From Lytechinus pictus (taxonomy: Eukaryota): DNA of 64,000 nt. The stretch covers positions 12,648,001 through 12,712,000 of the forward strand of contig NC_087247.1 of NCBI RefSeq assembly GCF_037042905.1. Direction: 5' to 3'. Position numbers: made by a program. Shown here in pieces: positions 3,001-6,000 of the stretch. Position 1 is the stretch's first letter. The number at the start of each line of letters is the position of its first letter.

Positions 3001-6000
3001 ATATGTAAATTTATTCTATACTCAATTTTATACTCATCCGAATGAATACAACTGTGTTTTCCGACAACATATGATACGTAATTATAGTCAACATGTTTTA
3101 TATTTGCAGTACTAATACAGAACAAACTGCTTTCCTAGTCTAGACGGTCGAATAGAGACTAGCGCGTCTAAAATCAGTATACTGGAGTCCGTTTATGTTG
3201 TTCGACAACGTATCGCTACCAAGTGCCTCACAGACATCGCGTGCCCCAGCAAGGCCATTCTTCCGCCAAGTTAAGTTGACGCTGACGGCTCGGCTACGGG
3301 ACAGAGACAGGCCACACCCTGCTGAAGATCTTGAAGAGAGCTGTTGGTTGGGTTGGTCAAGCATCACACTGGCGTGTTGGAAGCGACCTGACGAGAGAAG
3401 GCAAAGAAGAAGAGTGACATGAATTATTTCACAAACACCAAAATCCCACTTTTTCATTGGTGGTCATGATTTGTATTTCTTATCTTACTACACACCTTCC
3501 TACAAGAAAAGACTAATCCATTGCATATCATGAACAGAGTCAGGTTTCTTTGTTTCGGCGTCTGTCTGATTTCTGTTATCTTTTTATCCGACACCTTCCC
3601 TACTTCCTAAAAGAAAAGACAAAACCATTGCACATCATGAACAGAGTCAGGTTTCTTTGTTTCGGCGTCTTTCTGATTTCTGTTATCTTTTCATCCGTCT
3701 TTGACTTCTTGGTAGGCCTTTTTTCGGGTCTGTCCAGTTGTTGGCAAAAAAGACGTAATTGGCCTGACACTTTCCTAAATCTTTGATACCATGTATCGAG
3801 TCTCGGTTGGTTTATACTTACCTAGCTCTATTGCGAAATATGAAGGGTAATACCCTATGTACAATCAGTGGTGTGAATAAAATGTTTTAGAATAAGGCCC
3901 TATTTTCATACATAATATAAATAAAATCTATTCCTCTTTCTTTCGAACCAACCTATGATACCATCGACAGAAGATGTTAGGCCGGTATTATCAAGAACGT
4001 TGAATGTAAAGGCATCGGGCCGATGTCTGTCCGTGTTGGAATCCAGTCGTTTGCTCATTATCTCAAACCTAGCACCGTTCGCCAGCGACACTACCACGTG
4101 AAGTCCATTGACCTCCAGCGAGTGAGCTCCAAAGGTATACGCAGAGGTGATTCCCCAACGCAAAGGACGACTGGAGTCGACGGCTATACCACCAGAGTTG
4201 AACTTGAGGCGATGTCTGGATGGCTGGGGCGAGTTGAGGACAATGGCGATTTCGCCGATGTAAGTGCGATCTCTGTCTCCGAATCGACCAGAGACAGTGT
4301 CCCCGACGATTCGCCCATTCACAAAGATACCTGAAACAACAGATGAATGTATATCACAAAAATAGCAAAGTTCATTCAGATTTAGAATAGAATAATGGAC
4401 AATTGTACTCCATATGTCACTGCTAGATTCAAATTCAAAACCTTGATACACCTGATAATGTTTTCCCTTTTCCCCTCACAGTTTCTTTTTAAATCTAAAT
4501 CACTATCTTACCCGAGGACAGGGGGTCGGGTGGGACGGTCGAGGCAGAGTGCCCGGCCCCTCTGACATAATTTTACTAAACTTTTGTCGATGCTTGTCAG
4601 AAATTTGTTGCCCATCCAGACGAGTTTTTCCAGGTACGGCACTGATCCAGTAAAAGGAAAGAAGAAAAAACCTATCCAGACCTTTGTGACCTTGATGAAC
4701 ATGTACATGCGAGCAGCATGACATATAAACACTATTTCTTAAACAATATTTGATGCATTTATTATATTTATTTTAATGATATTTTCACGTCTTTACCTTG
4801 CAATGGATCTTCTAATAGAGCAATGACGTCATTGTCTTGAGGATCCTCGTCTAAGCACACGGTGATCTCAACCTTTGGTACAGCTATGGTGAATCCTAAA
4901 TCAACAAAAAAAAAACGAAAATAAAATCATAAAGACCAATGCAATAGCCGTCACAATTGGTTTCTCTACATTGTCAATTATATTGTAGAATATTTATAAT
5001 TACCTTTTCCTTGATATAGAGTTTCCAAACCGTTCAATCTTTTGGGATCCTATTGTGAGCATGGTTTGTTTAAAACAATCATATATTTGTTTTAAAAAAT
5101 GTAAAAAAGGAAAAAAAAACTACTATATTCTATAAAATGATTGGAAGAGTATGACTGGATGCAAATTACAGTTTGGAGGCCGAATGGTAAGGGCAAATCA
5201 ACTCACGTCTACATTAATATCTCATAACTCTTGCAACGTGAGAACGAACATGTAAACTAACGTCATTTAGAAGAGATGAATAAAATAAATAAAGGTAATT
5301 CTAGATCAGCAAAGACTGATGTTTATCCAATACTGTAGCTCATTCATGCATCCTGGCATTGATCGTAATGGAGAGACATAGGGTAAGAGTAGGAAGTGAG
5401 GGTTGGGCGATAACTTCTCCTCCACTAAGAACCCCTTTGTCCTCCCCAGTTTCCTCAGTTTGAATTACGATTGACAATTTTCTTGTCCCCCCTTGCACCC
5501 CAACATTTTCCACTTGCCCCCTAAATTACTCCTTTCTTCTAAAATCCTTGAGCCGCCCAAAAAGGAGACGTTGTATTACCTGCAGAAAGAGGTTCTGGTG
5601 CAGGGATAGGAGCAGGTGGGATGACGGTGTAGTTCCTGGAGAGTGTCTTTCGAGCGGTACGGGGCAATGGTGAGGTGATGACTCTCATGCCAAATGGATT
5701 CACCCGACGTGATCCCTGGTCATCTCGACTGATCAACAACGCAGTAGAAGGGTTGAAGAATCTGATTGAGTTGATAGATTACTTTTAAATAAATAATACA
5801 CGACTTGGGATCATGCATCCACAAGTGGAAAGCAAAAATGGTGATTTGATATACATGAAATGACCTCGTTACTCGCATGACTTCTTCAATTAAACGTAAG
5901 AATCAACTCTGTTGACAGTCAAGAACTGCAACCCACTGTGTGATGGATTTGCATAACAGTAGCTCAGTCTCAATTTATAATTAACTTGATAAAAATCACA

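What the first reader, a model, noticed from the sequence alone, without database searches (positions are those of the whole stretch)
4797..5761. The Asp-Pro (DPHFII) cleavage/esterification motif is missing from an otherwise retained ITIH C-terminal domain
Seen: where vertebrate heavy chains read DPHFII.hP...hCF, this gene reads PEPLSAG|FTIAVPKVEITVCL; downstream motifs are preserved. Known: cleavage at that Asp-Pro bond creates the C-terminal Asp that is esterified to chondroitin sulfate and transferred to hyaluronan by TSG-6. Inference: the protein is probably not processed or GAG-linked in the vertebrate way and keeps its C-terminal domain. This fits concatenation replacing covalent assembly.
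Basis: partly seen in the sequence, partly recalled or inferred. Interest (0 to 1): 0.68.

Follow-up and report, generated by a model that had tools for sequence, protein, structure and literature searches.

The report
ITIH-like gene without Asp-Pro cleavage motif
The last of three joined heavy-chain-like units in an animal gene keeps its tail domain but, in the predicted transcript, lacks the self-cutting Asp-Pro site that vertebrate relatives use to attach themselves to sugar chains, as is already known for human ITIH4; a look-alike of that site lies, apparently unspliced, in the adjoining intron.

Summary
Exon A is 5761-5580 and exon B is 4895-4797. They join through a split Gly codon, with good splice signals. 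Exon A ends ...PAPEPLSA and exon B starts FTIAVPKVEITVCL. The next exon (4330-3953) matches Pfam ITI_HC_C.

The junction lies about where the cleavage site should be. It is 62 residues after the conserved Tyr of the TPLTSM-type motif, against 72 in human HC1. From the junction to the stop there are 239 residues. The HC1 and HC2 pro-domains are 239 and 244 residues.

No D-P-H occurs in the gene's exons.

One new point: the A/B intron holds one frame-compatible, stop-free candidate exon (5424-5317) that encodes N-P-H-F-L-L-L-P. This arose in 7 of 40,000 shuffles. Its splice signals and codon usage are poor. I read it as a probable relic.

Loss of the consensus with the tail retained is already known for vertebrate ITIH4. 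Moderate interest.

The parts
6167..6336 (-). Exon before exon A. It encodes the post-VWA helical stretch (..PEDIIERIWAYHIIQSLKNEQ..) and ends ..SVQY plus two bases of an Arg codon.
   Evidence: Sequence read. Acceptor pyrimidine fraction 0.89; donor CAG|GTGTGA, 7 of 9. Codon-usage score +0.30 per codon. No ITIH hit on its own in PDB.
5580..5761 (-). Exon A. It begins FFNPSTALLISRDDQG, which by eye is the counterpart of the F-V-T-P-L-T-S-M-V-V stretch of ITIH4 printed. A Pro-rich stretch follows, ending ..PAPEPLSA plus the first base of the junction Gly codon.
   Evidence: Codon score +0.19 per codon. No Pfam or PDB hit on its own. BLASTP against the unit A tail is not significant (E 1.5).
4896..5579 (-). 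Intron between exons A and B (684 nt, GT..AG).
5317..5424 (-). Candidate relic or alternative exon B' (108 nt, phase 1 in and out, no stop). It encodes ..EEKLSPNPHFLLLPYVSPLRSMPGCMNELQYWINI..
   Evidence: It is the only 1 of 17 frame-preserving AG..GT candidates that carries P-H-F. [DN]PHF plus two hydrophobic residues arose in 7 of 40,000 shuffles. Against its use: acceptor pyrimidine fraction 0.33, donor 3 of 9; codon score -0.175 per codon; no BLASTP, PDB or Pfam match.
4797..4895 (-). Exon B. It supplies the last two bases of the junction Gly, then FTIAVPKVEITVCLDEDPQDNDVIALLEDPLQ, then the first base of a Gly codon. It holds two Asp-Pro bonds (4845-4840, 4809-4804).
   Evidence: Codon score +0.07 per codon. 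No Pfam or PDB hit.
3953..4330 (-). Exon C, the first two thirds of the ITI_HC_C domain.
   Evidence: Pfam PF06668 columns 4-128 of 189, E 8.7e-9; 46.1 bits for the open segment. Acceptor TTGTTTCAG, donor TAG|GTTGGT. Codon score +0.26 per codon.
3143..3387 (-). Candidate last exon D (80 full codons, then TAG at 3145-3143).
   Evidence: Acceptor pyrimidine fraction 0.89; phase fits exon C. Codon score +0.11 per codon, against -0.63 for reading through the exon C donor. No Pfam or PDB hit on its own. With this exon, the junction-to-stop length is 239 residues.
6794..11075 (-). Body of unit C. VIT start lies in 11075-10866 (exon starts at 11027). VWA lies in 8904-8476 (MIDAS D-I-S-G-S) and 7856-7569. 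The post-VWA exon lies in 7144-6794.
   Evidence: Pfam; MIDAS. PDB: ITIH4 9c4f_I residues 433-536, E 9.3e-12; ITIH1 6fpy_A 439-507, E 2.7e-7.
11214..16861 (-). Unit B. VIT in 16861-16679 (exon starts at 16843). VWA in 14223-13909 and 13571-13110. Tail exon ends at 11676. Linker exon is 11278-11214. No tail domain.
17075..26132 (-). Unit A. VIT in 26132-25944. VWA in 20910-20521 and 20167-19811. The tail exon carries the helical stretch, an Asp-Pro at 17689-17684 and a Pro/Thr-rich repeat, and ends at 17075. No tail domain.

Best explanation
The region is the boundary between the heavy-chain body and the C-terminal pro-domain in the third and last unit of a three-unit ITIH-like gene on the minus strand.

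In the best-supported splice model, the residues at the position of the vertebrate Asp-Pro-His site are Ser-Ala-Gly. They are encoded across the exon A/exon B junction. A complete-length tail of 239 residues follows, and it contains the ITI_HC_C domain.

Inferred consequences:
- With no Asp-Pro bond at that position, the acid-triggered self-cleavage cannot occur there. That cleavage is what creates a reactive C-terminal Asp and esterifies vertebrate HC1-3 to chondroitin sulfate.
- The protein is therefore secreted as one chain that keeps its tail domain, as vertebrate ITIH4 does.
- It would act through its three MIDAS-bearing VWA domains as a multivalent matrix or body-fluid protein, not as a transferable heavy chain.

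Shown: the exons, phases and signals; the domain match; the absence of the motif; the distances. Inferred: no cleavage, no sugar-chain link, and the function.

The intronic N-P-H-F piece is most simply a decayed remnant of a motif-bearing exon. That would make the absence a secondary loss.
For: - Junction and signals.
- Phase continuity from the preceding exon (Y, split Arg, then FFNPSTALLI..).
- ITI_HC_C match.
- Position upstream: the unit A tail aligns to ITIH1 6fpy_A 547-605 of 660 and to ITIH4 9c4f_I 540-599 (E 2.7e-4 and 1.4e-4). The 6fpy chain is a 22-residue tag plus residues 35-672, so it ends at the native C-terminal Asp (PMC7170535 passages). This puts the Asp 72 residues after the conserved Tyr. 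In unit C the junction Gly is 62 residues after that Tyr (my count).
- Position downstream: 99 + 378 + 242 nt plus one base gives 240 codons, that is Gly plus 239 residues. The pro-domains of HC1 and HC2 are 239 and 244 residues.
- No D-P-H in the gene. 0 of 17 frame-preserving intronic candidates carry Asp-Pro.
- Precedent and chemistry: PMC2268946, PMC7793589 and PMC8267560 (passages).
- MIDAS D-x-S-x-S is present in 3 of 3 VWA first exons.
- Codon usage favours exons A, B, C and D and disfavours B' and the read-through.
Against: - No transcript evidence was available.
- Exons A, B and D have no homology support of their own.
- The match of exon A's start to the TPLTSM-type motif is by eye; BLASTP against the unit A tail gives E 1.5 in another register.
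- No motif-bearing ITIH could be aligned, so equivalence of position rests on distances. These differ by about 10 residues upstream.
- The N-P-H-F candidate would put its Asn 69 residues after the Tyr, closer to HC1's 72. It is unlikely to be chance.
- Two other Asp-Pro bonds lie in exon B.
- The joined spliced model was not searched or folded.
- The single-exon structure model was unusable (mean pLDDT 34.3).
Confidence: 0.58

Rival explanations
1. The candidate exon 5424-5317 is used, either constitutively or as an alternative to exon B. At least some protein then carries Asn-Pro-His-Phe at the boundary. Cleavage C-terminal to Asn through a succinimide is chemically possible and can cross-link proteins, so such an isoform might still cut and link itself.
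For: - Frame-compatible, stop-free and AG..GT-bounded.
- The motif arose in 7 of 40,000 shuffles and is the only such match in six frames of the window.
- Its Asn lies 69 residues after the conserved Tyr, against Asp at 72 in HC1.
- Used instead of exon B, it gives a tail of about 235 residues, also close to 239 and 244 (my count).
- Asn-side cleavage and succinimide cross-links: PMC8582265 (abstract and passages).
Against: - Acceptor pyrimidine fraction 0.33 and donor 3 of 9, against 0.61-0.94 and 6-7 of 9 for all model exons.
- Codon score -0.175 per codon, exceeded or equalled by 30% of null windows.
- No similarity to exon B, to PDB or to Pfam.
- Asn-side cleavage is described as slow.
- I recognised the motif after looking, so the shuffle figure overstates the evidence.
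Confidence: 0.1
2. The tail domain is still removed, but by another route. One option is acid-labile cleavage at one of the two Asp-Pro bonds of exon B. The other is a proprotein-convertase-type cut at the R-T-A-R-K stretch of exon A.
For: - Asp-Pro at 4845-4840 and 4809-4804.
- R-T-A-R followed by K in exon A. It lies in the stretch that by position corresponds to the flexible, protease-exposed C-terminal loop of HC1 (PMC7170535 passages).
Against: - Neither Asp-Pro is followed by His, nor does either sit at the expected offset.
- A minimal R-x-x-R is common by chance.
- Nothing here tests cleavage.
Confidence: 0.15
3. The motif was never present in this lineage, and the intronic N-P-H-F is coincidence. 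On this view the Asp-Pro-His chemistry is a later, vertebrate-side addition to an older VIT-VWA-tail protein.
For: [quoted passage not shown]
- The best-conserved exon is only about one third identical to human ITIH4 (my estimate from the alignment), so the gene is a distant relative.
- B' has no coding signature.
Against: - The shuffle rarity of the N-P-H-F piece at exactly this intron.
- Unit A has Asp-Pro 63 residues after its conserved Tyr, within 3 residues of the unit C junction offset (S-A-G-F at +60 to +63). That is a weak, after-the-fact observation.
- The organism is not identified.
Confidence: 0.25
4. The gene model is wrong in a larger way. The tail exons might belong to a separate transcript, or the locus might be a decaying copy.
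For: No transcript data. Exons A, B and D lack independent homology.
Against: - Every junction examined is in phase with consensus signals.
- No stop interrupts any model exon.
- The total tail length matches HC1 and HC2.
- Codon scores of the model exons fall in the top 2-8% of null windows.
Confidence: 0.07

Closest known systems
[quoted passage not shown]
   Same: - VIT, VWA and post-VWA body: best PDB hit, 9c4f_I, E 9.3e-12 and 1.4e-4.
- It lacks the C-terminal consensus needed for bikunin complexes, so it is not built into proteoglycan complexes and keeps its C-terminal region (PMC7793589 and PMC2268946, passages).
- It has a Pro-rich stretch before the tail.
   Different: - ITIH4 has one unit; this gene has three.
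- The tail exons of this gene gave no phmmer match to the full-length ITIH4 chain.
- Whether this protein has a protease-bait region like ITIH4 is untested.
Vertebrate HC1-3 (ITIH1, ITIH2, ITIH3), the bikunin-linked heavy chains
   Same: - Same domain order, with a tail of the same length (239 residues against 239 and 244).
- Same TPLTSM-type stretch.
- MIDAS present.
   Different: - No Asp-Pro-His at the boundary in the predicted mRNA.
- Three bodies in one chain.
G-D-P-H self-cleaving proteins (MUC2, MUC5AC, FCGBP; ITIH3 is cited among them)
   Same: This is the chemistry that the motif would support: Asp-Pro hydrolysis, a reactive Asp anhydride, and a link to GalNAc (PMC8267560 passages).
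   Different: The motif is absent here. The intronic look-alike has Asn for Asp and Pro for Gly before it.
Annotated echinoderm ITIH-like genes (Sp-Itih_2, Sp-Itih_6, starfish Apitih1-3, sea cucumber 'putative ITIH3')
   Same: They show that ITIH-like genes outside vertebrates are already annotated and expressed (PMC4750990 table passage; PMC12119288 passages).
   Different: Those papers, as far as I read the passages, say nothing about the cleavage motif or multi-unit architecture. I could not compare sequences, and the source organism of this window is unknown.

Membership tests
ITIH family (inter-alpha-inhibitor heavy chains, broad sense) | N-terminal VIT domain | tested here: met
   Pfam VIT, columns 2-50 of 111, in the first VIT exon of each unit: 25.0, 24.6 and 26.8 bits (cut-off 26.5). 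E values 2.2e-5, 2.9e-5 and 6.2e-6. These are partial, exon-level matches, and two lie just under the cut-off.
ITIH family (broad sense) | VWA domain with MIDAS D-x-S-x-S | tested here: met
   VWA, VWA_2 or VWA_3 matches in six exon segments. D-I-S-G-S, D-V-S-A-S and D-F-S-A-S in 3 of 3 units.
ITIH family (broad sense) | Post-VWA body homologous to solved heavy chains | tested here: met
   ITIH4 9c4f_I and ITIH1 6fpy_A/6fpz_A are the top hits for 7144-6794 (E 9.3e-12 and 2.7e-7) and for the unit A tail. For unit C's helical exon and exon A alone there was no ITIH hit.
ITIH family (broad sense) | ITI_HC_C tail domain | tested here: met
   PF06668, 46.1 bits (cut-off 27); exact exon 35.7 bits. 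Columns 129-189 were not matched by exon D alone. The joined model was not searched.
Bikunin-linked heavy chains (ITIH1/2/3-type) | Asp-Pro-His(-Phe) consensus at the body/pro-domain boundary | tested here: not met
   S-A-G-F lies at the junction. There is no D-P-H in the gene's frames. 0 of 17 intronic candidates carry Asp-Pro. An N-P-H-F variant exists only in a poorly signalled candidate exon.
Bikunin-linked heavy chains (ITIH1/2/3-type) | Ester link of the C-terminal Asp to chondroitin sulfate and transfer to hyaluronan | not testable with these tools
   This is a biochemical property. Only the sequence prerequisite could be examined.
ITIH4-type (free heavy chain) | Consensus absent, C-terminal region retained on the mature protein | tested here: inconclusive
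   Absence and the presence of the tail-coding exons are shown. Retention on the mature protein is inferred.
ITIH4-type (free heavy chain) | Protease-susceptible region used as bait | not tested
   Described for ITIH4 in the abstract of PMC7793589 (listing). No sequence test is available here.

The most novel reading that the evidence does not exclude
The N-P-H-F-L-L-L-P piece in the A/B intron is a fossil of a true Asp-Pro-His-Phe exon. An Asp-Pro in unit A at the same offset is a second trace of it. On this reading, the self-cleaving, sugar-linking chemistry of heavy chains existed before this lineage split from the vertebrate line. It was then discarded when 'mature heavy chain' modules, cut exactly at the old cleavage point, were strung into one polypeptide with a single tail domain at the end.
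Probability: 0.3. Interest if true: 0.65.

Novelty: new variant of a known kind. Interest (0 to 1): 0.38.

Why it matters
If the reading holds, the gene is a natural example of a heavy chain that keeps the pro-domain without the cleavage chemistry, outside the one known vertebrate case (ITIH4). This bears on what the tail domain does apart from promoting cleavage.

The module boundaries of units A and B end within a few residues of the position where vertebrate heavy chains are cut. This suggests that the 'mature heavy chain' is an evolutionary unit. The possible fossil of the motif would date the chemistry earlier than the hyaluronan-transfer system it now serves.

None of this overturns current understanding. 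The plain fact that an ITIH-like protein lacks the consensus is not surprising.

Tried and rejected
- PDB sequence searches, exon by exon. The open segment holding exon C (3909-4475), exon A, exon B, exon C and B' gave 0 hits. Exon D gave 1 unrelated hit at E 1.8. The helical exon gave 2 designed repeat proteins at E 0.42 and 0.78. So no letter-level alignment around the site was possible.
- get_proteins does not accept PDB chain ids (error). I used only the alignments that searches printed.
- ESM Atlas with exon C: no usable hit.
- AlphaFold2 on exon C alone: mean pLDDT 34.3, pTM 0.31. The model was not used and no fold search was run.
- Prokaryote genome scan with exon C: 201 pattern matches, 0 confirmed.
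- Paper searches: 'DPHFII' found 0 papers. 'DPHF' plus 'inter-alpha' found 1 unrelated paper, seen only as a listing. PMC1218904 is not held.
- Idea that B' and exon B are duplicated, mutually exclusive exons: BLASTP finds no alignment at E up to 100. It is not supported beyond a by-eye F-hhh-P...C pattern.
- A 19-nt AG..GT piece around the intronic GATCCC at 5049 is out of frame and is preceded by a stop in the Asp-Pro frame. Rejected.
- Reading through the exon C donor to the stop at 3909-3907: codon score -0.63 per codon. Rejected in favour of exon D. Pfam does score the read-through residues, 46.1 against 35.7 bits.
- D-P-H-F at 55879 (-): the segment has no Pfam family. I take it as chance.
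- One row ('unitB tail') used a wrong frame and is dropped.
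Full report
**Scope and limits**

- The window is 64,000 bases with one N run (57681-57905), which I left as it is.
- I do not take the contig for human. In its best-conserved exon the gene is only about one third identical to human ITIH4 (my estimate from the alignment), and its architecture differs.
- By instruction, the spliced model was examined exon by exon.
No ITIH-like sequence from another animal could be fetched or aligned.
- Paper supplements were not consulted.

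**1. The observation**

The gene runs on the minus strand.

- Exon A begins after AG 5763-5762 at 5761 and ends at 5580, before GTAATA.
- Exon B begins after AG 4897-4896 at 4895 and ends at 4797, before GTAAAG.
- Exon A encodes FFNPSTALLISRDDQGSRRVNPFGMRVITSPLPRTARKTLSRNYTVIPPAPIPAPEPLSA plus the first base of a Gly codon.
- Exon B completes that Gly and continues FTIAVPKVEITVCLDEDPQDNDVIALLEDPLQ.

The splice signals are in the range of the other model exons. Acceptor pyrimidine fractions are 0.61 and 0.83, and both donors match 7 of 9 positions of MAG|GTRAGT. The frame of exon A is fixed from upstream. The preceding exon (6336-6167) ends ..SVQY plus two bases at a CAG|GTGTGA donor, and the first base of exon A completes an Arg codon.

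**2. What lies downstream**

- Exon B ends in phase 1. The next acceptor (TTGTTTCAG, exon start 4330) accepts that phase.
- Exon C (4330-3953) matches Pfam ITI_HC_C. The exact exon scores 35.7 bits, E 8.7e-9, with 125 residues on columns 4-128 of 189. The open segment scores 46.1 bits, E 5.6e-12.
- After the TAG|GTTGGT donor there is a strong acceptor (pyrimidine fraction 0.89). It opens an 80-codon exon D (3387-3146) that ends at TAG 3145-3143.
- Exon D has no Pfam or PDB match on its own. Its codon usage is exon-like (+0.11 per codon), whereas reading through the exon C donor is not (-0.63).

**3. Is the junction at the position of the vertebrate cleavage site?**

No motif-bearing relative could be aligned, so I used distances.

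Upstream distance:
- The tail exon of unit A aligns to human ITIH1 (6fpy_A, chain 547-605 of 660, E 2.7e-4) and to ITIH4 (9c4f_I, 540-599 of 930, E 1.4e-4). The alignment runs through the helical stretch and the T-P-L-T-S-M-type motif.
- The 6fpy chain is a 22-residue tag plus residues 35-672. Its last residue is the native C-terminus that is linked to chondroitin sulfate (PMC7170535, passages).
- The conserved Tyr before the motif is chain residue 588, so the Asp lies 72 residues after it.
- In unit C the corresponding Tyr is the last full codon of exon 6336-6167. S-A-G-F then fall at +60 to +63 (my count).
- The equivalence of FFNPSTALLI to the printed ITIH4 stretch is by eye. BLASTP of exon A against the unit A tail is not significant.

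Downstream distance:
- 99 + 378 + 242 nt plus the one base from exon A make 240 codons, that is the Gly plus 239 residues.
- The pro-domains of HC1 and HC2 are 239 and 244 residues.

**4. Absence of the motif**

- D-P-H-F occurs once in six frames of the window, at 55879-55868 (-). That open segment has no Pfam family.
- D-P-H occurs once on the minus strand between 3000 and 27000, in a frame closed by a stop. Shuffles give a mean of 0.89.
- Between 4700 and 5800 the three minus frames hold three Asp-Pro. One is in the intron, directly after a stop. Two are in exon B (4845-4840 and 4809-4804).
- So the canonical site is absent, but the tail is not free of Asp-Pro bonds.

**5. The intron**

I listed every AG..GT piece of 3-150 nt in 5579-4896 that keeps phase 1 and has no stop. 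There are 17, and none contains Asp-Pro.

One of them, 5424-5317, reads ..EEKLSPNPHFLLLPYVSPLRSMPGCMNELQYWINI... It contains Asn-Pro-His-Phe, then three hydrophobic residues and a Pro.

For a non-chance origin:
- In 40,000 shuffles of the intron, P-H-F appeared in 1006.
- [DN]-P-H-F appeared in 82.
- [DN]-P-H-F plus two hydrophobic residues appeared in 7.
- It is the only such match in the six frames of the window.
- I recognised the pattern after looking, so these figures overstate the evidence. Even so, chance is not the comfortable explanation.

Against its use as an exon:
- The acceptor is purine-rich (pyrimidine fraction 0.33) and the donor matches 3 of 9 positions.
- Codon usage is -0.175 per codon, and 30% of null windows score at least as high.
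- It has no BLASTP similarity to exon B, no PDB hit and no Pfam hit.

If it were included, its Asn would lie 69 residues after the Tyr, against HC1's 72.

I read it as a probable relic of a motif-bearing exon. An alternative exon or coincidence remain possible.

**6. Surroundings**

Pfam coverage of the minus strand:
- One search scanned 150 of the 160 open segments of at least 38 aa that end at or before 26000.
- One search scanned 150 of the 179 open segments of at least 44 aa that end after 24778.
- The 29 not sent lie beyond 57015. Ten short segments between about 24.5 and 26.0 kb were sent only if they were at least 44 aa.

This shows three VIT+VWA units, with ITI_HC_C only after the third.

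The units are joined by phase-compatible, consensus junctions:
- 17075 (GTAAGT) to 16843;
- 11676 (GTGAGA) to 11278;
- 11214 (GTAAGT) to 11027.

Further features:
- Unit A ends in a Pro/Thr-rich tandem repeat.
- Unit B ends 69 residues after its conserved Tyr.
- Unit A has Asp-Pro 63 residues after its Tyr, and unit B has Asp-Ala-Pro at +61 to +63 (my counts).
- The copied module is therefore essentially the 'mature heavy chain'.
- All three VWA domains keep D-x-S-x-S.

On the plus strand, 42 of the 60 open segments of at least 45 aa listed in 1-12015 were scanned. They gave one sub-threshold hit (DM, 17.7 bits against a cut-off of 27). Rfam finds only a tRNA at 58169-58240.

**7. Mechanism**

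Established knowledge, as read here:
- Heavy chains are made with C-terminal pro-domains that are removed when the chain is attached to the bikunin chondroitin sulfate.
- The Asp-Pro bond of a G-D-P-H-type site is cleaved autocatalytically, giving a reactive Asp anhydride. ITIH3 is linked through that Asp to GalNAc (PMC8267560, passages).
- ITIH4 lacks the conserved site or consensus and forms no bikunin complex (PMC2268946 and PMC7793589, passages).

Inference: with S-A-G at the site, this protein is not cut or linked in that way. It keeps its tail, like ITIH4.

The chemistry of an Asn at the site was read only as background. Cleavage through a succinimide is slow and can cross-link (PMC8582265, abstract and passages).

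**8. Comparison and novelty**

- The gene passes the tests for the ITIH family in the broad sense.
- It fails the defining consensus of the bikunin-linked subgroup.
- It resembles ITIH4 in that one respect.
- ITIH-like genes of echinoderms are already annotated. I found nothing in print on their cleavage motif with the searches. Those searches cover only the held library.
- Motif loss is a known kind of variation. The three-unit architecture with one tail and a possible motif fossil is a variant I could not find described. I also could not check it against protein databases.

**Verdict**

The missed point is the N-P-H-F piece in the intron.

Noticed in passing
window 26132-3143 (-): Three VIT+VWA heavy-chain-like units are joined by in-phase consensus splice junctions (17075/16843, 11676/11278, 11214/11027). 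There is no stop or signal-peptide-like exon between them. ITI_HC_C follows only the third unit.
   Followed up: partly
window 17600-17100 (-): A Pro/Thr-rich tandem repeat (periods 63, 78, 123 and 141 nt; ..PPRTWPPRTRPTTTEAPRTRPP..) forms a mucin-like linker at the end of unit A. Long open frames on both strands arise from the repeat.
   Followed up: partly
window 17689-17684 (-); 11238-11230 (-): Unit A has Asp-Pro (..ANCDPRP..) 63 residues after its conserved Tyr. This is within 3 residues of the unit C junction offset (S-A-G-F at +60 to +63). Unit B has Asp-Ala-Pro at +61 to +63. These may be traces of an old boundary motif, or coincidence in Pro-rich linkers.
   Followed up: no
window 26946-26659 (-): An open segment upstream of the unit A VIT exon ends ..FFQ then QDLIDRVKRQAADVV... 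It is a possible N-terminal propeptide exon with an R-V-K-R convertase-type site. The start codon and signal peptide were not located.
   Followed up: no
window 6620-6321 (-) versus 16043-16150 (+) and 25416-25496 (+): A short dispersed repeat lies in introns of all three units, in inverted orientation relative to the unit C copy (63-70% identity at protein level over 27-36 codons in the tblastn). It is probably a transposon fragment.
   Followed up: no
window 3496-3697: A 107-bp unit is repeated 1.9 times (93% matches) inside the last intron of the gene.
   Followed up: no
window 36920-40324 and 35795-36664: Large tandem arrays: 435 bp x 7.8 copies at 98% matches, and 256 bp x 3.5 copies at 88%. 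Both carry GAA/CCA/TCN-rich 18-mers (Glu/Ser/Pro-type codons on the plus strand). No Pfam family was found on the minus-strand frames; the plus strand there was not scanned.
   Followed up: no
window 58169-58240 (+): A tRNA gene (Rfam RF00005, 60.9 bits). It is the only Rfam match in the window.
   Followed up: no
window 55879-55868 (-): The only exact D-P-H-F in six frames of the window. Its open segment has no Pfam family and there is no ITIH context, so I take it as chance.
   Followed up: yes
window 26365-26538 and 30406-30531: Long trinucleotide microsatellites, (TAC)n of about 58 copies and (ATC)n of about 42 copies. They give poly-Ser or poly-Val open frames that are not genes.
   Followed up: no
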